Shown here in pieces: positions 9,496 to 41,303 of a DNA stretch of 64,000 nt (positions are counted from its first letter, which is position 1; each line of letters begins with the position of its first letter). The DNA is taken from positions 63,922,001 through 63,986,000 of the forward strand of contig OX597827.1 of the NCBI GenBank assembly GCA_951406725.2, read 5' to 3'. The notes beneath the pieces are model-generated. The model ran no database searches and had not been told where the DNA came from. It saw only the letters and a program-made list of their open reading frames with translations. The DNA is from Octopus vulgaris. Lineage: Eukaryota. Made by a program: the position numbers and the translations under genes.

Positions 9496-9638
9496 TCAGC
9501 AGGCATTGTTAATCACATTAAAAACTATTTGGTAACTGATAACAATAAACTAAAAGGTTTACCCAGAAACTCTAATCAATAAACTTTTAAAAGGTTTACC
9601 CAGAAACTCTAATCAATAAACTTTATAAGACTGACTTC
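9496..9638 (+). promoter_or_regulatory. Putative promoter of small-gene paralog copy 1
   Basis: TCAGCAGGC at 9496-9504 is shared with copies 2 and 3. A 37-bp tandem duplication (9551-9624) doubles TTACCCAGAA, which aligns to the GAS site TTCCCAGAA of copy 3. A partial IRF-type site AAAGTGAAAA lies upstream at 9402-9411. Confidence 0.5.
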
Positions 9639-9681
9639 CTCTGCTTCACAGAAAGAACTTTATAATACTCAAGAGATACAG
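9639..9681 (+). other. Putative non-coding exon 1 of paralog copy 1
   Basis: gacttcctctgcttc...aagagatacag|GTGAGT (donor 9682-9687), followed by ttgtttaattgt. Aligns with 27586-27650 and with 36239-36330, including the intron start. Confidence 0.6.
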
Positions 9682-10023
9682 GTGAGTTTGTTTAATTGTA
9701 TTCATTCTCATACATTTATATCAAACAAACCTACATGTTTAATTAATTCAATAAGACTTCTATAATTTATTAGCATAGTGTCTTTTCCATAAGCAATCTG
9801 TATATTTATCTTTTACTTGTTTCAATTATTTGATTGTGGCCATGGGACTCCATTTTAGGCCAGGCCAAGTACTTATTCTACAGGTTTCTTTTGGTAAACA
9901 GCTTGAAAACACGGGGTGCAAACATAATAACATCATTAGTCAAGCGGTGGCTGGGGACAAAATATCTCAAAGACACACATACACAGTTCATATATATATT
10001 TATATACACTAACACACACAGAC

Positions 10024-10147
10024 ACACTAGCGTGGTAAGAGTGGATGTTGCCCCCGGACTCCACAAAATACACATTGCCTATAGCAATAGCCTACAACAG
10101 GATGAAAGTGCCGCCCCTGCCCACCCCCAGCTATACTAGTATGTGCA

Positions 10148-10206
<59 letters not shown>

Positions 10207-10660
10207 GTAATTCGTTTTCAGAGATAAAAAATACCAAGGCTGTGAAGGTTTTTGAAAATTTTAAATAAAACACTTGATTCAGTAGCACTGTGTACTAACT
10301 CTGTACTTGGAATGACCAATTTTAAATACTATTGGATTTTACTCACAAGGTATTGGAATCTTATATGTATACCATTCTGCCTAAATAAAAGATCTACAAA
10401 TGCAGTACCCCTGCATATCTTACATCTATTATCATTCCTCCAATTCACTCTCTATTTCGTATCTTATTTAAATTAACTATTGCTTAACCATCTTCTCACA
10501 CTGTCTCTGATGAAGGGATGAAATAAATATCCTGGAAACAACTGTACGACCTATTTATAAATGTTCTAAAATCTTCACAGCCTTGGTTTTTAATTTCATT
10601 CTGAAAAATAATTTTTCATATATACACATACTGTATATGACCTACATTAGACTCCTTATT
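10024..10660 (+). repeat. ~640-bp direct duplication, copy 2, with hammerhead motif at 10507-10538
   Basis: Near-identical to 6498-7142. CTGATGA...GAAA is retained, but stems III and I carry substitutions (caactgtacgac). Confidence 0.9.
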
Positions 10661-10944
10661 CGCTTAATCACCAAACCTGGAGCTTAACTATGATCTATGA
10701 GTGTATACACACACACATAAATATGTATATATACATATATATGTACATATTTATATACATACATACAAACATATATACATATAAATCTGTATATATATAT
10801 ATATCTTTACGCTTAAATATATATTTCATTTCTCCTTAGCCTTCACGTGACACAGTTGTTAATGTTTATTTCAGTTGGGTCACGCCCTTCCAATTGCTAT
10901 AGATTCGTAATGAATCTTATGGCTGTGCCTGTCGCCTGCATGGT

Positions 10945-11800
10945 GAGGAATGTGTGTCTGTCTGTCTGTCTGTGTGTTTCCCTAAAACCTGAGCTACATA
11001 ACCAATTTCATTCAAATTTTACACATGCCTTACTTAGGGTCCATGTAGTTTCATGGACAAAAAAAATGTTCAACTTCTTGCCTAGAGCGAGCCCATAGCA
11101 ATATCATATCTTCTCCACTATTTCAGTATTACGTGTTAAAAGTGAAACAAAAATAGTTCTCTATTTTATGTCAGATGCTTTCATTTTAACAATAAAAATA
11201 ATAATAACAATTGAATTATATGTAGTAAGTAATAATTAAAATCAAACTAAAGTATAATATAATCGTAACATAGCAAAAGTAAAAATAGCAATTGGTATAA
11301 AATTGCATTAATGATTTGAACTGGTTTCATATGAATGGGAATAAATTAAAAATAAGATTAGCGTGCAGAAATTGAATAGTCCAGATGGATAATAAAAAAT
11401 TAAATTAAAGAAAAGACTATTGTCTATAAAGTATACAATGTAGAGAAAAAAGAAGAGCTAACAATTCCAGTCTGTTATATATTTTGAGTATTGTTATCAC
11501 TAGCGATATCAAGATATAACTTTGTATTTTGCATTTTATGTGTAGATGTATATATATAGATGTACATGTAATATGTACACATATATACATGCACTAGCAC
11601 TATGACCCGGCAATGACGGGTCTTTAATGCTAGTATATATATATATAACTGAGAATGTGTGTTTGTTTGTCTGTGTGAATCCCTAAAACTCAAGAAGTAT
11701 CGAACTGATTTCATTCAAAGTTTACACATGCATTACTTAGGGTCCATGGAGTGTCATAGGCCAAAAAATTTTCAACTGCTTGCCTAATGCAGACCCAGGC
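10945..11800 (+). mobile_element. Non-autonomous Helitron-like element followed head-to-tail by the 5' end of a second copy
   Basis: 3' hairpin acccg-gcaatga-cgggt then CTAG|T at 11630-11634; highly similar to 14265-15279 but lacking ~300 bp of its interior. Confidence 0.7.
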
Positions 11801-12047
11801 AATTTTATTAAAAAAATTTACTCTTAAGTATTTCAAGATATTTTTGTGTAATTTTGGTAAATATATCTGTTAAAATGATATGTCAGTATTATTTTCATTT
11901 TTGCATAATTTACACAATTTATTCACTGCACTGTATTTCTTACATGATGTCTAATTGGCTCATTTTTCCTGCTCCTTTTTTAAATAGCCTTTAGCAATAC
12001 ATTGGTGTTAAGAAATTATCCATGAACCCAATAATGTAGAATTTAAA

Positions 12048-12513
12048 TACCCTAAATCCTTGAGTATAGTCCGCCCTTGAGGGGATTTTTAGGGGGCTGT
12101 ACCTTTGAAAAACCTAAACCTTGTGTATAATATGCACCCCTTCTCTAACTTGAGTCATGGAGGTCTATATAACGTCCTTGGTTTGTAAAAATGTATACGG
12201 TAACGTCCTTTATTATTATTGTATATATAACATAATGCAAACGTGTAGCTTTTTTTGTGCATTTTGTTTGCAGAAAATAAAAAAATAACAGTCAAAACGT
12301 TTAATAAATGTTGCAAGTTATGGATGATTTAAGGTATTTTCGCGCCCGACATCATAAAATGCGTCTGAATAAACATTGCCGGACAGCAAATAGAGACTCG
12401 GACATTGCTTAGAAAATATTTTTTATTTTTAACCTCGTATACAGTATGCACTAGGGATTTTGACCTTTAAATGTTTGGGAAAAAATGCGGATTATACTCG
12501 AGGATTTACAGTA
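12048..12513. mobile_element. Tc1/mariner-superfamily MITE
   Basis: Imperfect ~27-bp TIRs, taccctaaatccttgagtatagtccgc / gcggattatactcgaggatttacagta, with TA ends. Confidence 0.65.
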
Positions 12514-13897
12514 TTTCTTGTGGTTTTCTCTGAGTCAAACTGTTTAATCTTTGCTGTTCATGTTCAAGTTCAGCTGTTTTAAGAACACTAGATATGATAC
12601 AAGTGTTAATAATGTGTCATACGTTGGCAGTGGGAATGGTGACAAATCCAACAACTGCTGATGGACTGACAGGTTTAACAGTTGAATTGAAATTTTTCAA
12701 TTTATGAACAACACCTTCACTTGTGTGGGATGACAAATGGACAACACCAGATGAATTTTTAGTTAGAATACCATTAATACCTGCTGCAATCTTAATGAAT
12801 AATTGTTTATGGACAGGTTAAGAATTGAGAATATTTACTTTTTTTGAGTTAATGTGTCAATTGTGGTACCCCCGCCTGATAATATAAAATATATTAAAAT
12901 ATATCAATATTGTCTGGTTGCTTGTATTTATTAAAACTGTCGCACCTCAAGTCCCTCACAAAATCACACACGTTCTGCAACTGGGATTCTGTGAAGATTC
13001 GTCTGCTATTTCCAGAGAATTATGGGGAAACCAAAGTGGTTCACTTAAGAAAGCAGAAATTACGAGAACAGTGGTTAGTAAGTGCTAGGTGATTAATATT
13101 TTGTCAGAACAGTAATAGGAGCATATGTGCATTTACAAGGGTATAAAGATCGTGAAATACAAACAAACATATTATTGTAACGTTGAAAGAGATAGAAGGC
13201 TATTGTTTAGTATTTATGACTTTCAATGTTACATATCATATACAATACTTTCAGCAAACTATAACATTTTATTAAATATATCATTGTATAGAACTTTTTA
13301 ACTGACATACAGTTATTAAGGAGTTGCTTCTGATGTTCACAGGACAGTGGAGTCTTTTTTTTTTTTTCGGGGAATCTTTAATTGCCCTTGTTTCTAAATA
13401 TAAGAATAGCATTGTTATCTTGTTGGATAGCCATTAATTCTCAGGTTATTTTTGTATGTCACTTTGACATTTGCAGTAGGTGGCAGTGTAGTTGCATATA
13501 AACATTTTCCTTTGTCAAAGTGATAAGTTCTTTCGGTTTTTCTTTTTTCTGACCTAGTTAATTTTTTTTTTTTCTGCGTGAGCAGAGAAAAAGAGTAAGT
13601 CGATACAGAAACATGTTATCAGCATAAGTAAAACAGTGTGAAAAAACAAAATGCGACAGACACATTGCATGGTATGTTCGTTTACACATGCATAAATTTC
13701 TCCTGAAACAGTTGACAAAAAAAAGTATTAAGCCCTCACCAGAAAACTCGATATGCTAAAAATAAGAGTTAAATGTCCGAAAATGTTTTTTTCCTCGGCT
13801 TAACAACACTTTTTTTGGTAAATTTAAGCCTGGTAATCATTTTCTTGCTGTATTTTAGTGAACCCTTAAGTTAGAGGAATACACACATACATATACA

Positions 13898-13945
<48 letters not shown>

Positions 13946-14027
13946 ATAATAAATATTAGGGAATAAATCCAAATTTACAGGGAAAAATCAGATTTAGGAT
14001 TGAATCCAATTTTATAGTAAAATATAA

Positions 14028-14238: not shown

Positions 14239-14248
<10 letters not shown>
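14028..14248. repeat. Long near-perfect inverted repeat (~85-bp arms, AT-only spacer)
   Basis: ataatattaattagagacaaaaccactattatgcaaatcaaacaaagaaagacttaatccaatacat... is mirrored by ...atgtattggattaagtctttctttgtttgatttgcataatagtggttttgtctctaattaatattat. Confidence 0.9.
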
Positions 14249-14277: not shown

Positions 14278-15279
14278 TGAGAATGTGTGTCTGTCTGTCT
14301 GTGTGTTTCCCTAAAACTTGAGAACTACACAACTAATTTCATTCAAATTTTACACATGCCTTACTTAGGGTCCATGTAGTTTCATGGGCAAAAAAATGTT
14401 CAACTTCTTGCCTAGAGCGAGCCCATAGCAATATCATATCTTCTCCACTATTTCAGTATTACGTGTTAAAAGTGAAACAAAAACGTTTCTCTATTTTATG
14501 TCAGATACTTTCACGTTAACAATAAAAATAATAATAACAATTGAATTATATGTAGTAAGTAATAATTAAAATCAAACTAAAGTAACATGACAAAAGTAAA
14601 AATAGCAATTGGTATAAAATTGCATCAATGATTTGAACTTGAATAAGTGTTTTCACATGAATGGGAATAAATTAAAAATAAAATTAGCGTGCAGAAATTG
14701 AATAGTCCAGATGGATAATAAAAAATTAAATTAAAGAAAAGACTATATAAAGTATACAATGTAGAGAAAAAAGAAGATTTGAACACATGGAGGAAAGCAC
14801 CTTCGAAAAGTGTCTTGGTGCGACTATGAAAGGTATGTAATCAGAGGCGGTAAATTCGCCACAATAGAAGCAAGGTTCGAGTCAACGGAGCGTGCAAGGG
14901 AGTACTCGACTTGAACTTGCAAAGTGGAAATATTTTATTTTTACCTTTATATCTGGGATGTAGGACGTCCCGGAAAAAAATTTAAAATGCCCCCACCCCA
15001 CCCCAGAAGTAGAGGAAGGCTGGATTGTAGCCACACTTCTATACAAGAGGGAGGACAAGATACAATTGATCGAAATTACAAGAGACAGGCTAACAATTCC
15101 AGTCTGTTATATATTTTGTGTATTGTTATCACTAGCGATATCAAGATATAACTTTGTATTTTGTATTTTATGTGTAGATGTATATATATAGATGTACATG
15201 TAATATGTACACACATATATATACACATATATACATGCACTAGCACTATGACCTGGCAACGATGGATCTTTAATGCTAG
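14265..15279 (+). mobile_element. Non-autonomous Helitron-like element
   Basis: Starts tatatataaaactgagaatgtgtgtctgtctg and ends with a degenerate hairpin plus CTAG|T (15276-15280); paralog of 10945-11633. Confidence 0.7.
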
Positions 15280-15314
15280 TATATATATATATATATACTG
15301 TATGTGTTCCTGTA

Positions 15315-15532: not shown

Positions 15533-17379
15533 GTGTATATGTATTATGTTATCAACATCGTTCAACGTCCACTTTCCATGCTGGCATGTGTTGGACAGTT
15601 TGACTAAGGAATGGCAAGCCAGGAGGCTGCACCAGGCTCCAATCTGATCTAGCAAGGTTTCTTCCTAACGCCAACCACTCTGAGAGTGTAGTGAGTGCTT
15701 TTTACAGTTGGGCAGCACTGGCCTCGACCACACTCAAATGGACCTTTTTACGGGAGCCAGTCAGGTAGCGCAATGACCATGTTCAAATGGTGTTTTTCAT
15801 ATGTGGTACTGGCATCAGCCATGTCAACAATTTCACTTGACTCAACAGGTCCTCTCAAGCACAGCATATTGCCCAAAGTTATGTGCGCCAGTTATGTGAT
15901 TATATATATAGCTTGTGAAGGCATATGGCTTAGCGGTTAGGGTGTTGTACTTACGATCGCAAGATCATGGGTTTGATTCCCAGACTAGACGATGCATTGT
16001 GGTCTTGAGCAAAACACTTCTTTTCACATTGCTCCTCAATAATTTCGACATCTGACATTTGGCACCCTTTGCACCTGTACAGGTAATGTCGATCTGATGG
16101 AGGGAGTGAGCTTATGTCTACGCAAACATTTGATCACTATTAACAAATCATCTGTGTGGTTGTTCAGTAAGAAATTGTCAAACCCTCATACTTCGTCTAA
16201 CGATAAGAGAGTCCATCATTTCAATTACTGATTCCTGATTCCTCTCTCAATTCTGCTTCACTTACTTTGGCTCTCTCTCTCTCTTTCTCTCCCCCTTTCT
16301 CTCTCTCTTCTGTCTGTTTCTCTCTCCCTCCCTCTCACTCTCTCTCTTTCTCTTTCTCTCAAACATTCTCCTCTTTTAGTAACCTCTTGTAGTTGCATTG
16401 CCATGCTTCATTCTTCTCGATACACACTCTAAGACGGCAAGCTGGCAAAGTTGTTATCACGCCAGGCAAAATGCTTAGCAGTATTTCACCCATTGCTATG
16501 TTCTGAGTTCAAATTCTGCTGAGGTCGACTTTACCTTTCATCCTTTCAGAGCCAATAAATTAAGTACCAGTTACACACTGGGGTCAATGTAAATGACTTG
16601 TCCCCACCCTCAAAATTTCAGGCCTTGTACCTATAGAAGAATGGATTATGTATACATACTTTTCACCAGTGTACCATATCCATACAGGCAGAAAATTTGC
16701 AATGCAAAACACTTCACATTTCTGATCTTTAAATTTCAAAACTTAGTAAAATACTTATTTTCAGCCTGTCTCCTTGTTAATTACACCTGCCATTTAGCTT
16801 CGCTTCTAGCTACCTAGTAATGTTCTTTATTTCTTGCCTTTTCTTCCATTCTTTCCAGGCCTGACTCTTTGCTTTTTTATGGTTCTGTTTACCATCTCAT
16901 TTCACAGATCTGGTCCATGGTTCAGTTGCTTTCTACATTATATGGTTCCATCTCCTCTTGTACTACTTAGAATTTATGACTGCCTAAGAAATACTTCAGC
17001 TTCCAATCTGTCCTTCTGGGTGGAGGGCAACTGCATGCTCACTCAACTTGCTGGAAATTGCAGCCTAGTGTCCCTCAAAAAAAAAAACCTTACTAGTTTA
17101 ACAAAGAAAAGATGATACATCTGATAATGTAATCAAACACAGACAAGGCAGGATGGTCAAACTTGGAACACCTCTGATTATAAGGTTAAACAAAACCAAC
17201 AAATAGTTGATTGAAAATATATTTGTGTGTCTGTTGGTCAGTTTCTCGATCTCTTTCTCTCTCTCACTCTCTTTCCCTCTACATATGCCAGTATAACTAG
17301 TTTCTTTTTTTGCTGTTGTTGTTGATTTTAATGTAATATCCCTATTTTTTTTCATCTAGAAATTTCCTAAAGCATTAAA

Positions 17380-17664
17380 ATGTCATGGTTTTTGATTGTG
17401 TGTGGAGTTTCAGCTGCTATAGCAATATATACTGTACTAGCTGCAAATCGAGAGCAACCGAGACGGTATGACCCACAGGAATTGTATGCGGTACGGGAGC
17501 CATATGAGCAAAGAACTTGTGTGACGTTTAATGAGAAAAATGTCAGTCGAGAGGCATATATCAATATATCCACTGCTTGTAGAACTGAAAGAAATGGAGT
17601 CATTCAAAGACGAAGGAATGTAAATGGTGCAAGTGGGTTAGTGGAGTATATTATTAACACTTGA
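17380..17664 (+). CDS. Small protein (~94 aa) with N-terminal signal peptide/anchor; coding exon of paralog copy 1
   Basis: Polypyrimidine acceptor tttttttttcatctAG (ending 17359) 20 nt before an ATG in aaaATG context; non-repetitive ORF MSWFLIVCGVSAAIAIYTVLAANREQ...; same layout as 40989-41303. The C-terminus may be spliced (possible donors at 17633 or 17637) to the exon at 20276. Confidence 0.6.
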   Translation: MSWFLIVCGVSAAIAIYTVLAANREQPRRYDPQELYAVREPYEQRTCVTFNEKNVSREAYINISTACRTERNGVIQRRRNVNGASGLVEYIINT

Positions 17665-17673
17665 TTATCTTTA

Positions 17674-18950
17674 AGCCAGTGAGCTGGCAAAATCGTTACT
17701 GTGCCAGGCCAAGCAAAATGCTTAGCAGTATTTCATCTGTCTCTATGTTCTCTGTTCAGATCCACCAAGGTTGACTTTGCCTTTTATCCTTTTGGGGTTG
17801 ATAAAATAAGCACCAGTTGAGTACTGGGGTTAATTAATATAATTGACTACCCCTTGCCACTATAGTAGAAAGAATCATCATCATCATCATCATCACATTC
17901 GCGACAACCACCATCACCATCATCATCATCATCATTAGCTGGGCAGGCAGAATTGCTAGCACACTGGAGGAAATGCTTAGCGGTATTCTATCCGTCGCTA
18001 CGTTCTGAGTTCAAATTCCGCTGAGATTGATTTTTGTCTTTCATCTTTTGGTGGTCGATAAATTAAATACCAGTGAAACACTGGGGTCGATGTAATCAAC
18101 TCATCCCCACCTTCCCCAAGCTACTCTTGTGGGAAAAATTTGAAATAATTATTATTAGGGCAGTGAACTTGCAGAATTGTTAGCACACTGGGCGAAATGC
18201 TTAGCAGTATTTCATCTGCCTTTATGTTCTGAGTTCAAATGACGTTGGGGGTCAACTTTGCCTTTCATTCTTTTGGGGTCAATAAATTAAGTACCAGTGA
18301 AACACTGGAGTTGATGTAATTGACTTGTCCTCTCCCCCAAAATTTCAGGCCTTATGCTTTATAGAAAGGATTGTTGTTATCATCATTATTATTATTATTA
18401 TTATTATTATTTATTAAGGCAGTAAGCAGGCAAAATCATTAGCATGCCAAGCAAAATGCTCAGCGGTATTTTGTCTGTCTTCGTGTTCTGGATTCAAATG
18501 CTGTCGGGGTCGACTTTACCTGACATCCTTTTGGGGTTGATAAAATAAGTACCAGTTATGCACTGGGGTCGATGTAATCGACTCATCCCCTCCCCCAAAA
18601 TTGCTGCCCTTGTGACAAAATTTGAAACCATCATTATTATTACAAAGGCATGAAGCTGGCAGAATTAAGACATCTGGCAAAATGCTTAATGGCATCTTAT
18701 CTGTCTTTACATTCAATGAAGGGCAGAGATCACATTCTGCCAAGGTGGACTTTACCTTTCATATTTTGGGGGCTTAATAAAATAAATGCCAGTTGAGTAC
18801 TGGGTTCAATCTAATTGACTATCTCCTCCCCCAAATTTCAGGCCTTGTGCTTTTAGTAGAAAGGATTATTATTATTATTGAGCACTGGGGCTGGTGCAAT
18901 TGACTTACCCTTCCGCCAAAATTGCTGGCCTTGTGCCAAAATTTGTGACC
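17674..18950 (+). mobile_element. Tandem cluster of about 6 co-oriented, diverged family B SINEs
   Basis: Repeated gagctggcagaa...ttctgagttcaaatt...gcctttcatccttttggggt...ataaa..aagtaccag units separated by (ATC)n/(ATT)n tails. Confidence 0.8.
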
Positions 18951-19048
18951 AATGTTAAAATTCATTTTCAATATGGGCACAAGAGCACTAATTTGCATCA
19001 TCATTTGGTGTTTTAAAGTCTTTGTGTTACCATCATCTTTTTATCTTT

Positions 19049-19452
19049 TATCTTTTACTTGTTTCAGTCATTAGACTGCGGCCATGCTGGGGCACTTCTT
19101 TGGAGAATTTTTTAAGCAAATGAATCAACTCCAGGACTTACTTTTTGTTTAACCTGGTGCTTGTCTTATCAGTCTCTTTTGCTGAACTGCTAGGTTTCAG
19201 GGACATAAACACACCAACACTGGTTGTCAAGCAGTGGTGAGAGATGAAAACTGACACAAACATGCTCACACACACACACGCATACACACACACACACACA
19301 CACACAGAGGCTTTTTCCAGTTTCCATTGACCGAATCCACTCACAAGGATTTTGTCAACCCAAGGCTATATTAGAAGATATTTACCCAAGGTGCCATGCA
19401 GTGGGATTGAACCTGGAACCATGTGGTTGGGAAGGAATCTTCCTACCTGTGC
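19049..19452 (-). mobile_element. tRNA-derived SINE family A (CORE-like), diverged
   Basis: Reverse complement of the family consensus seen at 49153-49586. Confidence 0.8.
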
Positions 19453-20275
19453 CTGAAAATCGAATACAAAAATGGACAAAATTTTTTTTTTGTTCTTTTA
19501 TTTTAATAGACATACGTCATTCAAATAGATATGTCGATAAAGTAACTCTTCCTCTTTACAAAGGTGGTATTCAACATAGTTTCCATCACAACCAATGCAA
19601 TTATGTCACCATTAAATCCAGCTCTTGAATCCACTTTGGAAAAAATTCAAATGTGCACTGTTGTATGAGGTGCTCATACAACAGGAACTTTGCTCCAAAG
19701 TTCCTGATTTGGAGTATAAGAAAATACAGGAGGATCAGTTAATTATGATTTTATTCAACATATTCCCCTCTCAGATTCACACACTTACTGCAGTAGTCAT
19801 ACCCCTTTTTCTAAGCCCTAAATAACTTGTAAGTTTGGGCCTCCAGCCAGATACTTTTCAGCACCCACTCATACCCATATCTTCACAGCCACTTTCGCCC
19901 TGCCTGTGTCATCAAATCATGGTCTCTGAAGACTGCCTTTCATTGAACTGAAGAGACAGAAGTCAAAGACAGCTCTATATTTAAGAGACGAGGAATTATG
20001 TACATTATTTACTTTTGACAGATATTTGTCCTCATCTTGTTTGTTGTTAACACAACATTTTGGCTAATATACCCTCCAGCCTTTATCAGGTGTCTTGGGG
20101 AAATTTTTAACCTGGGTTCTCATTCCTAAGGTATTTTTCGATGTTATTATTATTATTATTATTATTATTATGATTTTTTTGTTTGTATTTTGATATTCTT
20201 CTCAGTATAACAACCACCTTTAATTTTAAAAAGATTCAGTTTCACATCTCTTTCTCGTTTTTTTTTTTTTTACAG

Positions 20276-20436
20276 ATCCTCTGTCAGCATACGAGAGTAG
20301 ATCAAATCCATTATATCTACAACAGACTCTTTAAAATTTAGGACAGAAATGAAGAGCAAAAAAAAAAAAAACCTTCCTTAATTATCTTATAAACTAATTT
20401 TCTTTGTGAAATGTTCAGTTGATTGTAATACATTTG
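20276..20436 (+). other. Putative downstream (last) exon of paralog copy 1; 3' end undefined
   Basis: Strong acceptor (T)n-tacAG ending at 20275. The unique sequence is paralogous to 34351-34520 (ttaaaatttagg.cagaaat...tgaaatgttcagttga.tgtaata). Confidence 0.5.
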
Positions 20437-20837
20437 CTCGCAGAAACGTTAGCACACCGGGCGAAATGCGTAGCCGTATTTCATCTGCCGCTACGTTCTG
20501 AGTTCTAGAACTGAAAAAAAATGAGCTCTAATTTGAATAAAATTATTATTAGTTTGATTTTGTTATTGTTTTTTTTCTTTTCTTTTCTATGTTTTTATTT
20601 TCATTTCATTTTATTAATTTTTTTTCTTTTTGATGATGTAACTCATTCAGAACCAGGCATTTACCTCAGTCTGGAATTTCCCCTCAAGGTTTTCACATCT
20701 TAGTTTGAATACATAGGTAGCAACACTTGAGACAGACATACAGCAACTGGAATACAGACAAATCTTGCTTGAAATTTTTCAATGTTCAAGAGGTGACTGG
20801 ACTCCAAAATCATAAAGTATTTTTTTTCTGTTTTTTC

Positions 20838-27432: not shown

Positions 27433-27655
27433 TCAGCAGGCGGGCCTGATAACAGTAATTACACAGGCTATTTATGATCCAACCCACATAATCCAAAGAA
27501 AAGCTTGTACATTACCTTTTCATTTACAAAGAAAATGAAACTAAATTTTTTCCTAGAACTCTGCATCTAATCCCTTCTCTCGAGAACTTCATTTGCTTTC
27601 AAGAAACCCACTTGTACAGAAGTAGCTTTATATTGCTAAAGATATCTGAGTTTAA
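27433..27655 (+). pseudogene. Promoter and exon 1 of paralog copy 2 (probable pseudogene)
   Basis: TCAGCAGGC 27433-27441; ISRE-type GAAAATGAAACT 27531-27542; GAS TTCCTAGAA 27550-27558; Inr-like TCATTT 27589-27594. The exon aligns with copies 1 and 3, but the donor position reads gatatc-TGAGT (GT lost). Confidence 0.55.
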
Positions 27656-27663
27656 CTTTTATA

Positions 27664-28096
27664 TACTCTTTACTCTCTTTTACTTGTTTCAGTCATTTGA
27701 CTGTGGCCATGCTGGAGCACCGCCTTTAGTCAAGCAACTCGACCCCGGGACTTATTCTTTGTAAGCCCAGTACTTATTCTATCGGTCTCTTTTGCCAAAC
27801 CGCTAAGTGACGGGGACATAAACACACCAGCACCGGTTGTCAAGCAATGCTAGGGGGACAAACACAGCCACACAAACACACCACACAAACACACACACGC
27901 GTATATATATATATATATATACATATATACGACGGGCTTCTTTCAGTTTCTGTCTACCAAATCCACTCACAAGGCCTTGGTCGGCCCAAGGCTATAGTAG
28001 AAGACACTTGCCCAAGGTGCCACGCAGTGGGACTGAACCCGGAACCATGTGGATGGTAAGCATGGTAAGCAAGCTACTTACCACACAGCCACTCCT
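27664..28096 (-). mobile_element. SINE family A
   Basis: Full-length reverse copy, inserted just after copy 2 exon 1. Confidence 0.88.
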
Positions 28097-28493: not shown

Positions 28494-29132
28494 TCCCATA
28501 TTTAACTCACTTCTTTTATTCAATTATTTCTCAAATTTTTTTTTTAGTCCTGCACAGTAAAACCACAATAATTAAGATTTAGTATCACATCTTATTCATA
28601 ATCAACCTATGACTTCATTTGCTTCCACCAGACCCAGTTATGCAGAGTAAGTTTCTTTATTTGTATATATTCTCCAATATTTTATTATCAAAATTTAACA
28701 CGCAATTAACTAATTCATTGGCAGAGGTAAAGAACATGTACACCACTTGTTTTCAGCGTAACAAAAACCCTAACCGTAATCCTAACCCTAAACCTAAACC
28801 CTAACCACCGGGTGTATGTATTCTTTACTTTCGTCAATCCATTTACTCAATCGTATTCAGGTTTTTTTCTTAGCCCTGCACAGTAAGACTCCTATAATTA
28901 AGTTTTAATATAATGTCTTTTACATTATCAATCTGTGTACATGCTGGCAGAGTTTCAGATCAGGATACCTACATAAGTTAGATTTTCGGGGTTTAATTAA
29001 TTTGTTCTTGATCATGTTCTCGGAAATTATGTGAGAAATTTACACTATCTTGCAAGTCTTTGGGGTGCAGTGGGGTACTCACTTATTTTTCACTAATAAT
29101 TACTTCAAAAACTAGACAGTAATAAATCAACT

Positions 29133-29340: not shown

Positions 29341-29726
29341 ATAGAGGCTGATTCAAGTATAGAATGAAGCCAGTTGTTTTGTCACGAAATACACAGGGTA
29401 ATTTAGATCCTTCACAGAAACAAAGAAACAGTTGATACATACTGAAATAGTCTTTACCACTTTATTATCTCTTAATGGTTAATTTTATTATTGTTATATT
29501 TCAGGGATGGTCCTTTCCCCTCCGCCCCCAGATAATCACACACACAATGTACTTGTTTTTTACTTTATTATTGTTATTTTAGTGTCCTTTGTGTCTGAAA
29601 TCTTTTCTCACACTTCCTGTGACTTCACCAATGACTCTCCTTTCCATGTGTCTCCTTCTGTTCTGTTTAATCCATTCTGTCTTTATGTGATGTATATCCT
29701 TATATGTACATGTGTTTGTATTTGAT

Positions 29727-30315
29727 GTAAATCGTAATGGCGACTAAGAAGAAGAAGAAGAAGAAGAAAAAGAAGAAGACGAATGGCGGAAAAGATGGAA
29801 ATTGAAGGATTGAAGGATTAAAGGGTTAAATTTCGTAGAGAAAAGATAGGAAAAACGAAGCAGTTATTGTATGAGTACAGACGTTTAACAATAGTAACGA
29901 ATGAGGTACGAAAGATAATGGGATAAAATGTTTTTGCAACTTGCTGCGAAGTATGAAAGCCGGAAGCCGCTGTTGGAGAAGAAAGGAAGTCTAAAAATTG
30001 GGAACCGTAAATCGTAATGGCGACTAAGAAGAAGAAGAAGAAGAAGAAAAGAAGAAGACGAATGGCGGAAAAGATGGAATTGAAGGATTGAAGGATTAAA
30101 GGGTTAAATTTCGTAGAGAAAAAGATAGGAAAAACGAAGCAGTTATTGTATGAGTACAGACGTTTAACAATAGTAACGAATGAGGTACGAAAGATAATGG
30201 GATAAAATGTTTTTGAGGAAAAACGAAGCAGTTATTGTATGAGTACAGACGTTTAACAATAGTAACGAATGAGGTACGAAAGATAATGGGATAAAATGTT
30301 TTTGCAACTTGCTGC
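29727..30315 (+). repeat. Isolated patch (~2 monomers, one rearranged) of the 277-bp satellite
   Basis: Near-identical to monomers at 55-64 kb; internal partial duplication around 30215. Confidence 0.9.
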
Positions 30316-32329: not shown

Positions 32330-32882
32330 CCAAGTTTATAGCTGAGAGGGTAGTTATGGAGCCATTGCAGATTTCCAGTGCAGCGGATATATGACTAAAG
32401 AGGACAACAAACATTAAGACAAGGCAAATATCTCAAGTCGTATTCTGTGACAGACACCTTCATCTAGTAGATGATGCCATTAGGGAGTACGAAGAGGTGT
32501 CAGGGGCATAAATAAACTGTGGTAAGTCGGTCAGCTTGCAACTTGGTACCTAGAGAGGCAAGTTGATGCCATCTAACAATGTCTGTAGGACGTTGGACAG
32601 ATGGCCTAGTGAAATTGCATGGAGTCTGGTTTCGCCTGGACCTCCAGATAGACAGAAACTGAGGTGAGGTTATGAGCAGGGTGGCCAATCTCACTCTGAA
32701 ATGGGCTGAGAGGAAGCTGTCCCTGAAAGAGAAGGCAGAGGTTAGTGAATGTGTTTATTGCATCCATCACCATCTACTGCCTAGCTCTTATGCTTTGCTG
32801 AGATTTGTGTCTCATCAAGCTGGAGTGGCTGCTTTTCCACTTTTTGTAGAAAGACAGAAGTCCACTGGTCAGACACCCTATA

Positions 32883-32973
<91 letters not shown>

Positions 32974-34060
32974 GCACAGACATGCGCTAAGGCTAAGACA
33001 TATCCAGATTTACCTAAACAGTAAACAGGTGTGGTCACTCTTCGTGAAACTAGTCTTCCCACAGTTCAACTCATTTAATGAACTGAACTCATGGATCAAA
33101 CGTAGACCTAGGTTGGATGCTTGGCAAGCTGAGTGGCATCTGGCTCTCTTGCTTCTCTGCCGAATGGGCAATGCGAGCAGTGGGGACTCCACCTCATCCT
33201 TTTATAGAGGGTTGGTGGATGGTAAGTGCGACGATGTCCTGGGAGAGACTCTAGGTTTTGATGACAGTCAACTCACCAGTCTGATCTGGAGGACTTTTGG
33301 GCCAGGGCCCATGAATAACTACTTGAAATCCCTGGCCTGGCAGTGCTACTGAAGAGCTCTGCCTGTTCACAATAAACTCTTCGGGCACAGATGTGCAGAC
33401 ATGTGGACATGTCTGAGATGCAAACAGAGCAACGAAACTGTTCTGCATGCTACCGTACAGTGTCCAGTGATTTCAGATCTATGGGTTTATGTAGAACACC
33501 TGTCACATCTGGAAGGAGCACAGTTGTCAGCTGAGTCCATCATCAAGATTGTCCCACATCAAGATTGGCCAGGAAAGGTAGGCAACTTTTCTCTGCTTGG
33601 TGGCTATAGTGAAAGAGTTTCTGTGTTTGACGAGAGTGAAAAGAATTAAGAAGGGCAACTTTCTCACTGGTCAGGGTTTAACCCTTTCATTACCAACCCA
33701 GCTGAAACCGGCTCTGGATCTGTAGTACAAATGTCTTGTTTTCATAAGCTTTGAATTAAAATCTTTCACCAAACCTTAGTCACAATTAATGTTCCTAACA
33801 CTAGATTAATGATAACTCAGTTATTTTACTAAATTCATTGTTGTATTTAAAATAATTGAGAGAAAAACAGAGTATCTCAAAATAAATACAGTAATGAAAG
33901 GGTTAATAAACTATTTTACAACTATTTTACATACCACCTGCAAAGAAAAATAAGCTCCAGAGAGAAAGTTGTTAGCGCCATGTGTGTTCAGGACTAGATG
34001 GATGCAAGTGGCGCGATCATTGAGCATGAATGTGGCCAATTTGAGCATACTACCATAGTC
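32330..34060 (+). pseudogene. L1/Tx1-clade LINE ORF2 C-terminal remnant
   Basis: Degenerate IREYEEVSGA*INCGKS, WAERKLSLKEKA and C-terminal CCHC finger TCLRCKQSNETVLHATVQCPVISDLW; interrupted by (TA)n and a MITE. Confidence 0.8.
33678..33906. mobile_element. piggyBac-like MITE nested in the Tx1 remnant
   Basis: Perfect inverted termini TTAA-ccctttcattac / gtaatgaaaggg-TTAA (TTAA target site, CCC terminus). Confidence 0.85.
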
Positions 34061-34350
34061 TTCTGTATGAGAGCAGTGCTGGTTCGTGGCTTGTGGAGTC
34101 TCCATGCTTAACATTTCATCTTGTCTCATCATTATACCATGTCTAATTTTTATCTTGTTATTTCTTTTTGTTCTTCCATTCACACATTCAACCCTGTTGT
34201 AGACCCCTAACTGTTCTTGTTTGTCATGTATTGTCCCTCTATGTGAGCTTTAGTGGCTAATACAGAATTAAATTTTAAAAGCTTCAATTTTTCTTCTCTC
34301 TCTCACTCTCTTTTCTCTGTTTTCTTTCTTTATTCTTTTTCTTTTTACAA

Positions 34351-34520
34351 ATCCAATAGCAACTAACAACAGCATATCATATCTTTACCATACCATTGTA
34401 TCAACAACAGCAGAAGTTTTAAAATTTAGGTCAGAAATAAAGAGAAAAATAAAATCCTTCCTTGATTGCCTTACAAACGACTTTCCTTTATGAAATGTTC
34501 AGTTGACTGTAATATATTTG
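34351..34520 (+). pseudogene. Paralog of the 20276 exon (copy 2) with dead acceptor
   Basis: Aligns to 20221-20436, including the upstream aattttaaaa.g.ttca and pyrimidine tract, but the acceptor reads tacAA instead of tacAG. Confidence 0.55.
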
Positions 34521-36114: not shown

Positions 36115-36247
36115 TCAGCAGGCACGCCGAGCAACCATGAAAAAAAATCTTATTTCCATGAATAGCGTGTGTTTCCCAGAAATTTGCAGAAAGTGAAAGT
36201 ACTTCATTATCGCTTATTATAAAATCTCTTTATACAAAACTTCATTC
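36115..36247 (+). promoter_or_regulatory. Putative GAS-GAS-ISRE-TATA-Inr promoter of paralog copy 3
   Basis: TCAGCAGGC 36115-36123; TTCCATGAA 36154-36162; TTCCCAGAA 36173-36181; GAAAGTGAAAGT 36189-36200; TATAAAA 36218-36224; TCATTC (TCAKTY Inr) 36242-36247. Confidence 0.65.
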
Positions 36248-36306
36248 GCTTCGGAAAGGTCCAGTCATACATATAGCAGCAACTGTGTATCACAAAAGAT
36301 ATCGAA
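36244..36306 (+). other. Putative non-coding exon 1 of paralog copy 3
   Basis: Runs from the Inr to a consensus donor GTAAGT at 36307-36312; the intron start ctgtttaattgt matches copy 1 (ttgtttaattgt). Confidence 0.6.
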
Positions 36307-37423
36307 GTAAGTCTGTTTAATTGTTAATATTATCACATATTTATATGAAACTTTAACGCACAATTGATTATTTTATTCAACTCTATTCATAAGGCACCCT
36401 AAAATCAAGTCTTAATATCACATCATTAAATGATCTATGTACCTATGTTTATGTTAACCCTGCTGTATTTCTTTAAACTTGTAGGGTTGATTAGAGGGAG
36501 CTTTCACTTGTTTCTAACAGCTCTAGCGACTGCTAATTGGCAATCTTTCGTCTCTAGTAGACCTTTCCGTCGATTTCCGTAAAAAAATTTTTTTTTACAT
36601 ATGGGCTTGCGAGAACTTTTGAAGTAATGAGAGCGAAAGAGACTAAGAGAAAGCGATTGTATGACGAGGGAAGTTCTTTTGAAGTTACCGTGCATGTGAA
36701 GCATTGATGTAGATGTGTGTGTGTGCGTGTGTGTTTGATGGGGTGTGGGAGACAGACAGTATGTTGTGTAAGTGAAGTGCTTCTGTTAGTGTGTGTGAAG
36801 AGACAGAGTAATGTGTATAGGGGATCTGGCGATGTTTCGTTATATATACATGTTTGTGTGTGTTTCCCCTATACCGCTTGATAACAGGTGTTGGTGTGTT
36901 TATGTACGCGTAACTTAGTAAAAGAAAAAAAGAAAATTAAGCACCGAGGCCGATTCGACTAAAAATTCTTCCAGACGGTGCTCCAGAATGGCTGCTGTCT
37001 CATGACTGAAACAAATAAAAGAGAAAAAAAATAAAGATGTATGTAGGTACGGCAGACGAAATATATTGAAAGAAAGAAAACAACCAACACCCTTCCTTCC
37101 CAATTCTACGGCATTGGCCTTCAAGCAGGCTATCCACATGCTAGAAATAACAGCCATCTACAAACACACGATGTTTTGAGTTGGTCAAACGATTCTCTTT
37201 AATTTCACTTTGTCACAGTATTTCTTTGCTATTTTTACTTTTTTTTTTTTCAAAAGAGTTTACTGTTGTTTCTGCACTCATACTTTTTATAACTTTCAAC
37301 TCCCCCCCCCCCCAAAAAAAAAGAAAGAAATGTACACATTCACATGAATTACTCTGTCATATTACTGCGGAAAATTACTCAGAATTATGTTATCGCAGTT
37401 GTTTGAAATTTGGCTGTTATTTT

Positions 37424-38130
37424 AGTATTATTTGATACTTTCACCCGCATGATTTTCACTAAGAAAAAAAAAAAAAAATTCCCAGGATCAACCGTAGAGG
37501 ATCATGGAAAAAAATATGTGTAACATGTGTAAGGCATCGTATATTGAAGGAATATGACGAAAAAAAAGCGCGCTGACAAACGGGGGGGGGGGCTCGGAAA
37601 ACTGCCTACGATTTAAAGAAAAATTTACCATCAATTTTCACCATTTTAAACGCATTTCACACACATAGCCCAATGTCATAATTCAAAACTAACGCAGCGA
37701 AAATTTTGAAAAGTTCCCCCAGTTCTGAAAAAATCGATAAATTCGACATGGGGTCGCGAATCAGAAACACAATGGTGAAAATTGATGGTAAATTTTTCTT
37801 TAAATCGTAGGCAATTTTCCGAGCCCCCTCCCCCCCGTTTGTCAGCACGCTTTTTTTCGTCATATTCCTTCAATATACGATGCCTTACACCTGTTACACA
37901 TATTTTTTTCCATTTTTGCCTCTACGGTTGATCCTGGGAATTTCCCGAGCCCCCCACCCCCCACCCCCCGTTTGTCAGCGCGCTTTTTTCCCGTCTTATT
38001 CCGTCAATATACGATGCCTTACAACTGTTACACATTTTCGTTTCCATTTTTCCCACCGGGTGCGGATCTAGATATTAACCAAACAATTTAATCGAGGTCA
38101 AGGTACTTGATTCCAAGCAAAAAATCCGAG

Positions 38131-38190
<60 letters not shown>

Positions 38191-38232
38191 TCTTAGTGAA
38201 AATCGTGCGGGTGAAAGTATCAAATAATACTA
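37424..38232. repeat. Nested foldback (outer ~45-bp and inner ~165-bp inverted arms), partly Helitron-derived
   Basis: tagtattatttgatactttcacccgca.gattttcactaagaa is inverted at ~38190-38232; ~37480-37645 is inverted at ~37771-37941. The interior shares ctacgatttaaa.aaaaatttaccatca with the Helitron at 40625. Confidence 0.85.
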
Positions 38233-39130
38233 TCTTTTCAAATAAACTTTTCGGTGGACGTGACGTCAGCGATAGGCAGCCCACATAAATTAAAATTCTC
38301 CGCTTTGACGGGGTTGGGATTGGGGTTTAAGATTTTTTTTCTTTAAGGAGGTGTCCTTGGGAATGATCTGGAGCATCCTTTTAACAAAAAAAAAATGTTT
38401 TCGAAAAATGATTTTTAAAACTCTGCCCGGCCCTCATCATCTTCTCTCTGGACCGATTTTGGTCGATTTTGTGGGCACTATGTACTTAAAAACTATAAGA
38501 GAAGCCTTTTCATTTAAAAAAAAAAAAGCAAATATTTTCAGACGAAAAGGTGTGATTAAAGAGAGATTTGGCTGTTGTTTCTAGTATATCCCATGACCAC
38601 TTCCTCATTTCTTTCTCACCTATTGGTGTCTTTTTCAGTATTTTCTTCCCATTAATAGCATAAATTCATTAATGCTATTAAATTATTTTTGACAATTTAT
38701 GATTTTAATCAAGTCTCCCATGGGGCATGCTAGAAACAACAGCCAAATCTCCCTTAAATCACACTTATCGTCTGAAAATACTTATGTTTTTTGTTGTTGT
38801 TTTTACCGGAAATACTTCTACAGGTTTTAAGTGCGTAGTTTCCAAAAAATTCATCGTGAATAGTGCCCACAAAATAAAAAAAAAACTGTTCCGTGAGGGG
38901 AAGATGGAGTTTTTAAAAAATCATTTTTCGAAAAAGTGGATCTTTTCCTTTTGAACAGCGCTTTTCAACACAATTTCTAATTAACTAAACACTTTGAAAC
39001 TTCGTATACTGGTAGAATGTGTCAAAAGAAAACATTTTTTTCTCTTGGCTTTCTTGGGAAAATTGTAATTTGTTTGTTTAATGTAGTTTAATTTTTCGAA
39101 TTTTAACCAATCCTATGCCCTCTATTTAGC

Positions 39131-39477
39131 TAAAATCATTTGCTACGTCTAAAACAGACAACATCCTGTCACTAACCCTAAATTTTAGCCTTTCGTTTTT
39201 TTTTGTTTTGTTTTCTTAATTGTTAAATTAATTTAAGGATAACAATTAAGAAAAAAAAAAAAACGAAAGGCTAAAACGAAAGCAATGGAAAATAATTTTA
39301 ATTTAACAATTAAGAAAAAAAAAACGAAAGCAAAAACTCAAAACAAAACGAATAATTTTAGACACGCGTAACAATTAAGAAAAAAAAAAAACGAAAGGCT
39401 AAAATTTAGGGTGAGGGTTAGAGTTAGGGTTAGTGACAGGATGTTGTCTCAGTTTTAGACGCAGCAAATGATTTTAT
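39131..39477. repeat. Inverted repeat with telomere-like (TTAGGG) variants
   Basis: taaaatcatttgct.cgtctaaaac..agacaacatcctgtcactaaccctaa is mirrored by ttagggttagtgacaggatgttgtct..gttttagacg.agcaaatgatttta. Confidence 0.8.
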
Positions 39478-40159
39478 ATATAACATATGGATATATACGT
39501 GCTGAAAAACTCTTATATATTTCTGATCTAAAGTATAAAATTGATATGAATTTAAACAACATGGTCCAATTAATCTGCAAAGAAAGGAAAAAAACCCATA
39601 AAAATTTATACCAAAGTACCTGCAAAGTGAAATAGCTAGTTAAAAAATCTTTATAAGGGATGAAAGTAGTAACTATAATGGGAAATGATGTTTGTCACCA
39701 TGGCTGTTCCCTAGGAACTGACATTACTGCTATTTTTAACCACAGGAGGATACCTATTCCAGCTGGTTAATCATATATATATGTATATATATATATATAT
39801 ATATATGTATGGTTTCAACTTCTTTGTGGTCATCCGCAGTGGTGGATACTCATCTAGAGATAGCAGTAGCTCATTCCAGCTCAAAATAAATAGAAACCAA
39901 GTGACACACAGTCACTGATCTTACAACAAGCAGATTAGTTAGTTAGAATATCTCTATAAGAGACGAAAGCAATAACTATAGTGTATATGTGTGTGTGAAT
40001 GATGAAGGACACTCTAGATAATGTATTCTCTGATATTCACAAAGACTGGATGGTCATATATAGAATGTCTTCATCACTGTTTTACTCAACAGTAATGCTC
40101 ATTTGATATCTCAGTTTTTACATTTTAGTTTCTTGATCATTTTGTCTACCTATGTACCT

Positions 40160-40610
40160 GTGAGGAGGTGCTGAAATGTTCCTGACGTTGGGTAAAAGAA
40201 AATACAGGTGGATCAGTTAATTATGATTTTACTCAACATATTCACCTCTCAGATTCACAAACGTTTGCCAGCGGTCATCTAGTTTTTCTACGCCCTGTAA
40301 AAGAACTCGGAAGTTTGGGCCTCCGACCAGTACCTTCATGATACCCTTAAAGCCAGGAACATTTCATCTCTCCCTTGTATACCCACACACACACACATAC
40401 ATGAGGGGGTACTAAAATTTCCTGGCTTTGGGTAAAAGAAAATACAATTAATTATGATTTTATTCAACATATTCCCCTCTCAGATTCGCACACTTATTAC
40501 AGCAGTCCTTTAGTTTTTCTAAGCCCTGTAAAAAGAACTCAGAATGTTGGCCTTCCAACCAGGTCTTTCGCGATACCCTTAAAGCCAGGAACCTTTCAGC
40601 ACCCCATCAT
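40160..40610. mobile_element. Two tandem ~210-bp mariner-like MITEs (further copies at ~19690, ~22650 and 43141-43350)
   Basis: TIR-like atgagggggt.ct.aaa..ttcctggcttt / aaagccaggaac.tttcagcaccccatcat. Confidence 0.7.
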
Positions 40611-40624
40611 ATATAACTTGATTA

Positions 40625-40930
40625 TCTTTATATATAAAATTGAAGTTGTGTGTGTGAGACTCTGTCTCCTCCAATTTAGATTCCTAACTACTCCCACATT
40701 TTGCGATGCAGTTTAACCAAAAGCAGGTATCTTATAGTCGTCATTCATATCAAGCCCTTCTGGGTATTAGCGCGCGTCTACTATGAGTCTACGATTTAAA
40801 AAAAATTTACCATCATTTTTCCGCATTTTTAATGATTTTTGTTCGGGTTATACAAGGGAAGTAACTCTCTAAAAATGCTTATATAGTTATTTCCCTTACA
40901 AACCCAAGCAACGCCAAGCGATACTGCTAG
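40625..40930 (+). mobile_element. Short non-autonomous Helitron
   Basis: A|TC 5' end (tctttatatataaaa) and CTAG|T 3' end preceded by a degenerate hairpin; inserted ~38 nt upstream of the copy 3 acceptor. Confidence 0.7.
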
Positions 40931-40988
40931 TATTATATATAATAACTTTATCCAATTTTTTCATCCAGGTATTTTCTGATTGTTTAAG

Positions 40989-41303
40989 ATGGGAAGCGAC
41001 AGACGGAATGTTTCACCTCTGATGGAAGGTATTCAACTAGGTGGTGCTGTTGCTGCAGCAGCTGGTGTGATTTATGCGCTTTATACATACTTTTCTTCAA
41101 AGGAGTCAAATACCACTTACAAGGAAACCAATTATACGTGCCATACACATACAACAGAGAATGCATATGGAAGAGTGACAAACAGACAAGAAAATAACCA
41201 AACCAAAGAGACGCACACCACTGAAAGGGTTAGGGAATTTAGTAACAATCTGCAATTAGAAAACCGCAACAGTCTCAGCCGTAAAAATAAACATAGAAAA
41301 TGA
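40989..41303 (+). CDS. Small protein (104 aa, or 93 aa from the ATG at 41022) with N-terminal hydrophobic anchor; coding exon of paralog copy 3
   Basis: Acceptor ttttttcatccAG (ending 40968) 20 nt before ATG, the same spacing and near-identical acceptor as copy 1. The ORF has IQLGGAVAAAAGVIYALYTYF followed by a hydrophilic T/N/E/R-rich tail. Confidence 0.62.
   Translation: MGSDRRNVSPLMEGIQLGGAVAAAAGVIYALYTYFSSKESNTTYKETNYTCHTHTTENAYGRVTNRQENNQTKETHTTERVREFSNNLQLENRNSLSRKNKHRK

What the first reader, a model, noticed from the sequence alone, without database searches (positions are those of the whole stretch)
9496..41303. Hidden three-copy tandem family of small N-terminally hydrophobic proteins under STAT/IRF-type promoters: candidate cephalopod interferon-like-response gene cluster
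Seen: three mutually alignable promoter/first-exon blocks (~9496-9700, 27433-27655, 36115-36330) share TCAGCAGGC, an acttc.t..gctt start region and a gata-donor end. Two unique ORFs (17380-17664, 40989-41303) each begin exactly 20 nt after a near-identical ttttttcatc(t/c)AG acceptor, and a further exon is duplicated (20276, 34351). Copies 2 and 3 carry consensus ISRE and GAS sites within ~100 bp of the inferred start. Established: GAAANNGAAA(G/C)T is the IRF element and TTCN3GAA the STAT element; molluscs have JAK/STAT, IRFs and a dsRNA-inducible response (best described in oysters) but no recognised vertebrate-type interferon. Inference: a fast-evolving, lineage-specific family of immune-inducible small secreted or membrane-anchored effectors or cytokines. 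I do not recognise the proteins.
Basis: partly seen in the sequence, partly recalled or inferred. Interest (0 to 1): 0.85.

Follow-up and report, generated by a model that had tools for sequence, protein, structure and literature searches.

The report
Octopus orphan genes under interferon-type switches
Two small octopus-specific genes, each predicted to make a membrane-anchored protein, and a copy between them that lacks the coding part lie downstream of related likely promoter regions carrying textbook STAT and IRF binding motifs, so they are likely switched on by the octopus's interferon-like immune response.

Summary
The window matches Octopus vulgaris. Three related 5' blocks lie on one strand (P1 9496, P2 27433, P3 36115); a fourth exon-1/donor unit (28609-28720) was missed. 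The window's only 2 strict ISREs lie in P2 and P3, and 4 of its 15 GAS sites lie in the three blocks (594 bp; P about 2e-5). P1 has a GAS but no ISRE. Both ORFs are already in NCBI as proteins. ORF1 is CAI9733202.1 (93 aa, spliced 17636>20276). ORF2 has a collinear O. bimaculoides orthologue (69% identical) whose changes are far more conservative than neutral drift gives, so it is a real protein. But only two copies code; the middle one has no coding exon. The two proteins show no detectable similarity to each other or to anything outside Octopus. They are not interferon, Vago, IFI27 or IFITM members. Best reading: diverged paralogues encoding small N-anchored proteins, induced through STAT/IRF like interferon-stimulated genes (about 50%). 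Neither the first-exon splices nor induction was shown. A secreted cytokine is unlikely (under 10%).

The parts
9496..9681 (+). P1: inferred promoter and non-coding exon 1 of gene A; ends at donor AG|GTGAGT
   Evidence: aligns with P3 above all 670 background windows; donor; use as first exon inferred
9551..9624 (+). perfect 37-bp tandem duplication that doubles a degenerate GAS-like/ISRE-like unit
   Evidence: TRF 100% matches; aligns with the GAS and ISRE positions of P2 and P3
9645..9653 (.). GAS (TTCN3GAA) inside inferred exon 1 of gene A
9682..9806 (+). start of intron 1, homologous in P1, P2b and P3
   Evidence: 74-76% identity among the three intron starts
17347..17636 (+). gene A acceptor (17347-17359) and coding exon 2; ATG at 17380; donor G|GTTAGT after 17636
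   Evidence: gene model CAI9733202.1
20276..20541 (+). gene A last exon: final codons, stop at 20298-20300, 3' UTR; AATAAA at 20536 (3' end inferred)
   Evidence: C-terminus of P0003; frames and poly(A) motif
27433..27649 (+). P2: promoter/exon-1 block of the middle copy, which has no coding exon; weak donor GTTTAA at 27650, SINE at 27663-28096
27531..27558 (+). strict ISRE (27531-27542) and GAS (27550-27558) of P2
28507..28940 (+).
   Evidence: scores 74, 58 and 54 against P3, P1 and P2, each above all 670-680 background windows
34268..34520 (+). copy of gene A's last exon with its upstream pyrimidine tract; acceptor reads AA, reading frame broken
36115..36306 (+). P3: inferred promoter and non-coding exon 1 of gene C; donor GTAAGT at 36307
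   Evidence: use as first exon inferred
36154..36247 (+). GAS 36154, GAS 36173, strict ISRE 36189-36200, TATAAAA 36218-36224, initiator-like TCATTC 36242
40956..41303 (+). gene C acceptor (40956-40968) and single coding exon; ORF 40989-41303, 104 aa
   Evidence: exact in NCBI nr/UniRef; O. bimaculoides orthologue 69% identical; purifying selection

Best explanation
This is a tandem cluster of two small Octopus protein genes plus a middle copy without a coding exon; their related 5' blocks are likely the promoters and first exons, likely switched on by IRF and STAT factors during infection, and the proteins are predicted to be membrane-anchored effectors rather than secreted cytokines. Steps: (1) Shown: the paralogous blocks, the motifs, the two gene models, and selection on ORF2. 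(2) Inferred from motif layout: pathogen sensing activates IRF, which binds the ISRE about 55 nt before the initiator, and cytokine signalling activates STAT, which binds the GAS sites. Gene C (two GAS plus ISRE) would respond most strongly; gene A has drifted to STAT only or weaker control. (3) Inferred: a short ATG-free exon 1 splices to the shared acceptor, and translation starts 20 nt later. (4) Predicted: the single N-terminal helix is an uncleaved signal anchor. In ORF2 it is Gly/Ala-rich and only moderately hydrophobic, which suits an intracellular membrane such as the mitochondrial outer membrane or ER. The roughly 70-residue polar tail would act as a disordered binding surface in the antimicrobial response (about 30% for this location and role, given induction). 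(5) Inferred: P2 keeps perfect sites although its coding exon is gone, so it likely still works as a promoter of a non-coding RNA, or as an alternative promoter or enhancer for gene C through the P2b donor.
For: The only 2 strict ISREs in 64 kb lie in P2 and P3, each within 60 nt of a GAS; Markov simulations give 0.33-0.73 ISREs and 0-0.08 such pairs per 53.5 kb. 4 of 15 GAS sites fall in the 594 bp of the three blocks (binomial P 1.9e-5); in-block shuffles give a strict ISRE in 0.18-0.36% of 5000. The two ISREs are homologous, 10 of 12 identical, and both differences fall on free positions of the consensus while the block is 64% identical. The perfect GAS sites sit at non-aligned positions in the three blocks, which looks like binding-site turnover. 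P3 has TATA, initiator-like and donor elements in order. ORF2: 32 substitutions against O. bimaculoides, no indels, mean BLOSUM62 +0.66; 0 of 348, 0 of 520 and 0 of 780 stop-free neutral simulations reach this (likewise 0 of 340 and 0 of 449). One hydrophobic 19-mer per protein (Kyte-Doolittle 2.36 and 1.49), tails 61-83% polar. Oyster IRFs activate ISRE reporters and are induced by poly(I:C) (PMC5557890, passages). Shrimp IRF binds an ISRE in Vago4 (PMC4602278, passages). An octopod lists STAT5B among poly(I:C) hub genes (PMC11252417, passages) and IRF2 among LPS hub genes (PMC10778463, passages).
Against: No read or transcript was seen joining a block to an ORF 4.7 or 7.7 kb away, and no expression data under stimulation were seen. 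Block borders and the strict ISRE pattern were chosen after the motifs had been seen, and the two ISREs are one inherited site, not two independent ones. With the looser core GAAANNGAAA there are 16 matches in the first 53.5 kb, 7 of them in a common SINE. P1 has no ISRE, and P2, which has one, has no coding exon; only gene C has the complete picture. The two proteins do not align (BLASTP none at E<=100; HH probability 0.2; shuffle p 0.03-0.88 and block-shuffle p 0.17-1.0 over 6 settings; coding DNA p 0.38). The 12 residues after each helix carry little net positive charge (0, 0, +1), which is a poor fit for a mitochondrial signal anchor. Four primer-length probes found neither ORF among transcripts changed by Aggregata infection, although sequences in that table are cut at 400 letters.
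Confidence: 0.5

Rival explanations
1. The promoters are real and STAT-driven, but the programme is not antiviral: wound repair, regeneration, blood-cell production or tissue-specific expression. The ISRE-like site would be read by a constitutive IRF, or by Blimp-1/PRDM1 as a repressor.
For: GAS is the only motif present in all three blocks. STAT has wide non-immune roles, and the P3 site also fits the Blimp-1 consensus (both recalled, not tested).
Against: The P2 version of the site keeps the ISRE consensus through changes at its free positions. An ISRE next to a GAS is the usual layout of interferon-induced promoters (established knowledge).
Confidence: 0.2
2. The ORFs are real genes, but the blocks are decayed remnants of the duplication, the motifs are not used, and transcription starts elsewhere.
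For: No junction evidence. Introns of 4.7 and 7.7 kb are assumed. The middle copy is decayed, yet has the motifs.
Against: Motif enrichment. Consensus donors in P1, P2b and P3 with conserved intron starts. Both ORFs begin 20 nt after a shared acceptor and so need an upstream exon.
Confidence: 0.12
3. The 5' block is a dispersed mobile promoter (an LTR-like or other repeat) that carries ISRE/GAS sites and was captured by two unrelated orphan ORFs; the genes are then not a family.
For: The proteins are unalignable. The block's copy number in the genome could not be checked.
Against: The acceptor-to-ATG stretch, several kb from the blocks, is also shared (20 of 30 identical). All four units are on one strand in gene order. 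The block has no further copy in a window full of SINEs.
Confidence: 0.1
4. ORF1 is a secreted cytokine-like peptide (cleaved signal peptide, two further cysteines, dibasic sites), and the cluster includes the octopus interferon-like messenger.
For: ORF1's hydrophobic stretch begins at residue 3 and ends in small residues; Cys47 and Cys67, two N-glycosylation sequons, and RR/RRR motifs follow. Molluscs are predicted to use a non-homologous IFN-like cytokine (PMC6723221, passages).
Against: ORF1's block has no ISRE. No orthologue of ORF1 was found. The Atlas model is poor (pLDDT 0.50) and no family matches. ORF2 has a 16-residue lead before a weak helix, unlike a signal peptide.
Confidence: 0.08

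Closest known systems
Vertebrate interferon-stimulated clusters of small membrane proteins: IFI6/IFI27 (ISG12) and IFITM (recalled)
   Same: tandem paralogues, about 100-residue hydrophobic proteins, ISRE/GAS close to the start site, copy turnover
   Different: no Pfam match to either family; one N-terminal helix with a polar tail instead of their multi-helix domains; induction not shown; no interferon known upstream
Shrimp Vago4 (PMC4602278, passages)
   Same: small invertebrate gene with an ISRE near its 5' end, bound by the animal's own IRF; only one paralogue of five has the site
   Different: Vago is a secreted, cysteine-rich single-VWC peptide (recalled); these proteins have 0-3 cysteines and no such domain
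Oyster interferon-like axis: RIG-I/MAVS and cGAS/STING-TBK1-IRF, CgIFNLP, CgIFNR-3 (PMC5557890 and PMC8218723, passages)
   Same: supplies mollusc IRF and STAT factors able to act on ISRE/GAS sites
   Different: the reporter tests seen used mammalian promoters; this locus would be a native cephalopod target, and its proteins have no relative outside Octopus
Mitochondrial outer-membrane signal-anchored proteins (PMC4010795, passages)
   Same: one moderately hydrophobic N-terminal helix, no conserved motif
   Different: the positively charged flank after the helix is weak here; location untested

Membership tests
Interferon-stimulated-type gene (IRF/STAT target) | ISRE and/or GAS close to the start site | tested here: met
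   P3: two GAS and an ISRE; P2: ISRE and GAS; P1: GAS only. The start site itself is inferred.
Interferon-stimulated-type gene (IRF/STAT target) | induction by dsRNA, infection or cytokine that depends on IRF/STAT | not testable with these tools
   no expression data seen; negative but on a truncated table
Tandem paralogous gene family | homologous gene structure and 5' DNA | tested here: met
   blocks, intron starts, acceptor-to-ATG stretch and last exon are homologous
Tandem paralogous gene family | detectable similarity between the encoded proteins | tested here: not met
Tandem paralogous gene family | three intact coding copies | tested here: not met
   middle copy has no exon 2; acceptor reads AA; frame broken; its candidate ORFs are not on record
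IFI6/IFI27 (ISG12) | ISG12 hydrophobic domain | tested here: not met
   no such Pfam hit at E<=10 for P0001-P0004
IFITM / CD225 | CD225 domain | tested here: not met
Type I/III interferon | helical cytokine domain of about 165 residues (size recalled) | tested here: not met
   93 and 104 aa; no Pfam or PDB sequence match; Atlas models pLDDT 0.48 and 0.50
Vago | single VWC domain, cysteine-rich (recalled) | tested here: not met
   3, 1 and 0 cysteines; no Pfam hit
Tetherin-like restriction factor (works-like comparison, recalled) | N-terminal helix plus C-terminal GPI signal | tested here: not met
   C-termini are polar or basic; only one hydrophobic stretch per protein
Dispersed transposable element | many copies across the genome in either orientation | tested here: inconclusive
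   4 units in the window, all on the + strand; no genome held

The most novel reading that the evidence does not exclude
This locus is the core of a cephalopod interferon-like circuit built from new genes: gene C is an IRF- and STAT-induced membrane effector, gene A is the STAT-amplified secreted messenger that molluscs are predicted to have but that has no vertebrate homologue, and the copy without a coding exon survives as an ISRE/GAS switch.
Probability: 0.07. Interest if true: 0.85.

Novelty: new variant of a known kind. Interest (0 to 1): 0.5.

Why it matters
Molluscs have RIG-I, STING, IRF and STAT but no interferon homologue, and the downstream genes in cephalopods are nearly unknown because orphan genes drop out of homology-based transcriptome analyses. 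If P3 responds as its sequence predicts, it gives a native octopus ISRE/GAS promoter of about 190 bp. That could serve as a reporter to hunt for the upstream cytokine, and as a pattern for a genome-wide scan for more such genes. It would also show new immune effectors arising under an old, conserved switch, with proteins diverging beyond recognition while their promoters stay alignable.

Tried and rejected
No whole genome is held, so block copy number and neighbouring genes stay open. Sequencing runs for the ORF2 exon: no RNA holder listed on record. 20 of 24 rows hold half or more of the words (15 at 0.95; 14 only guessed to be RNA); none was laid, so this is not used as evidence. No reads were laid on the junctions. 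Protein searches: ORF1 found only its own gene model (1 of 1 candidates) and nothing among longer proteins (0 of 65). ORF2 found itself and the O. bimaculoides protein (2 of 2). The full HMMER scan of 1.84 billion representatives gave 2 hits, one of them a 4201-aa repeat protein matched over 12 weak stretches, rejected as chance. Pfam: only below-cutoff membrane DUFs. PDB: designed SAKe proteins, PetG helix and Vpr, all short or weak, rejected. ESM Atlas: no usable hit. Metagenome and viral contigs: 0 of 157 and 0 of 109 stretches confirmed. Rfam: 0. No structure model of my own was obtained. A RHIM-like reading of short motifs in ORF2 was dropped: the core glycine of the C-terminal motif is not kept in O. 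vulgaris and Pfam gave no RHIM hit. A chimeric origin of the middle copy (5' from gene C, 3' from gene A) is neither supported nor excluded, since segments are about equally distant (64-81%). A candidate exon 2 for the middle copy at 29507 (72 aa) and 3 other ORFs are not on record (0 of 4). No homologue of the last exon was found downstream of gene C. Literature: the three accessions are in 0 papers. Topic searches listed no paper on this locus by title. One search was too loose to show absence. Supplements were searched for one paper only; others may hold expression data. Earlier findings of the scan: nothing relevant.
Full report
Origin. The window is repeat-rich animal DNA. ORF1 matches an NCBI protein named for Octopus vulgaris, CAI9733202.1, at 100% over 91% of the query. 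No whole genome is held, so all DNA evidence comes from the 64 kb.

The 5' blocks. Three stretches start with TCAGCAGGC (9496, 27433, 36115) and end at a donor-like site. Against real background windows, P1-P3 scores 90 (0 of 670 reach it) and P2-P3 scores 55 (0 of 670, 0 of 674). P1-P2 scores 41 (11 of 674, 3 of 670), so it is tied in through P3. Homology runs into the intron: the first 70 nt are 74-76% identical among P1, P3 and a fourth unit, P2b. P2b (28507-28940) repeats exon 1, an intact GTAAGT donor at 28647 and the intron start. P2's own donor has decayed to GTTTAA and is followed by a SINE. All units are on the + strand.

The motifs. GAS (TTCN3GAA) occurs 15 times, 4 of them in the 594 bp of the three blocks (9645, 27550, 36154, 36173; binomial P 1.9e-5). 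Markov simulations give 0.33-0.73 strict ISREs and 0-0.08 ISRE-GAS pairs per 53.5 kb. The two ISREs are aligned and lie 53 and 58 nt before an initiator-like TCATTY. They differ only at free positions, in a block that is 64% identical. The perfect GAS sites do not align between blocks, which suggests repeated gain. P3 also has TATAAAA at 36218. Against this: the borders were drawn after seeing the motifs; the ISRE is one inherited site; the loose core has 16 matches in 53.5 kb, 7 of them in a SINE; and P1 has only a GAS plus a doubled degenerate unit.

The genes. Both ORFs follow TTTTTTCATCYAG by 20 nt; this acceptor occurs nowhere else in the window. One further acceptor-20-ATG-ORF case, with a different sequence, exists at 16879, so the spacing alone is not unique; the shared 13-mer is. 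The inferred 5' exons hold no ATG. Gene A's model joins 17636 to 20276 and ends seven codons into the last exon. Gene C is one coding exon of 104 codons, on record letter for letter. Its O. bimaculoides orthologue A0A0L8FQ67 has the same length and no gaps, at 69% identity. Neutral simulations run to the same 32 changes stay free of stops in only 9-20% of runs, and none of the stop-free runs reaches the observed conservativeness (0 of 348, 520 and 780). The protein is therefore under purifying selection while drifting fast. No orthologue was found for ORF1, so its coding status rests on the gene model and the shared layout.

The middle copy. Between 28940 and 34260 lie satellite units, microsatellites and a reverse-transcriptase fragment, with no exon-2 homologue. 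The copy of the last exon at 34351 has AA for AG and stops in the frame that gene A uses; an AG 9 nt further on could still serve. Its 3' 103 nt are 86% identical to gene A's 3' UTR, higher than any other segment. This is unexplained: a conserved UTR element or gene conversion. A long-dead copy would be expected to lose its ISRE and GAS, so P2 is probably still used (inference).

The proteins. Each has one hydrophobic stretch near the N-terminus (Kyte-Doolittle 2.36 for ORF1; 1.49-1.62 for ORF2 and its orthologue) and a polar tail of about 70 residues. They do not align with each other. Nothing outside Octopus was found in 5.8 billion proteins by word search, in 1.84 billion by HMMER (ORF2 profile only), in Pfam, PDB or the ESM Atlas. 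ORF2's Gly/Ala-rich helix fits the moderate hydrophobicity described for mitochondrial signal anchors (PMC4010795, passages), but its flank is not clearly basic. ORF1's helix could be an anchor or a cleaved signal.

Context from papers (passages only; supplements only for PMC4199593). Oyster IRF2 and IRF8 are induced by poly(I:C) and activate ISRE reporters (PMC5557890). An oyster receptor-like protein activates ISRE, STAT3 and GAS reporters (PMC8218723). Shrimp IRF binds an ISRE in Vago4 but none was predicted in four paralogues (PMC4602278). Amphioctopus responds to poly(I:C) with 2,613 changed genes at 6 h, STAT5B among the hubs (PMC11252417), and IRF2 is a hub after LPS (PMC10778463). Molluscs have the pathway but no type I interferon homologue (PMC6723221). 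The table of 538 transcripts changed by Aggregata infection in O. vulgaris haemocytes gave no match to four probes, but its sequences are cut at 400 letters (PMC4199593). The accessions appear in no paper of the library.

Mechanism and odds. Most likely (0.5), these are IRF/STAT-induced effector genes, with gene C as the clearest case. Shown: paralogous blocks, motif enrichment, two gene models, selection on ORF2. Inferred: promoter use, first-exon splicing, induction. Predicted: membrane anchoring and an adaptor role for the tail. Rivals: STAT-driven but non-immune (0.2), unused remnants (0.12), a mobile promoter captured by unrelated ORFs (0.1), a secreted cytokine (0.08).

Verdict. A real feature and a good lead. 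It works like an interferon-stimulated gene cluster if induction is confirmed, and it is a member of no known protein family tested. Interest 0.5.

Noticed in passing
window 55262-64000; partial copies 53540-54314 and 29727-30304: Purine-rich satellite of about 277 bp; an 18-nt marker of the unit occurs 35 times in the window. About two units are inserted in the middle gene copy.
   Followed up: partly
window 52218-53261 (+): 347-codon open frame with a CCHC knuckle (Pfam PF00098, E 0.0036, below cutoff), like a retroelement gag/ORF1, directly followed by the first satellite units.
   Followed up: partly
window about 32400-33650 (+): Broken non-LTR reverse-transcriptase fragment (zf-RVT, E 2.3e-5, below cutoff).
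   Followed up: no
window 15475, 21112, 27941, 35228, 42837, 48826, 49295: A common SINE carries the ISRE core GAAANNGAAA (7 of 16 core matches); it may seed weak IRF sites across the genome.
   Followed up: no
window 9496, 27433, 36115: The 9-mer TCAGCAGGC is the only fully conserved upstream word in all three blocks; it resembles a ZIC-type site (recalled, untested).
   Followed up: no
window 20330-20436 and 34418-34520: 3' UTR segment 89 of 103 identical between gene A and the middle copy, more than any other shared segment; unexplained.
   Followed up: partly
window 28766-28806: TAACCC telomere-like repeat inserted in the P2b unit.
   Followed up: no
window 40966-40974: Gene C's acceptor reads CAG|GTATTT, so it doubles as a donor-like site.
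   Followed up: no
window 6494-7151 and 10018-10669; 10955-11647 and 14284-15293: Two local duplications (96% and about 90% identical) around and inside gene A's inferred first intron.
   Followed up: no
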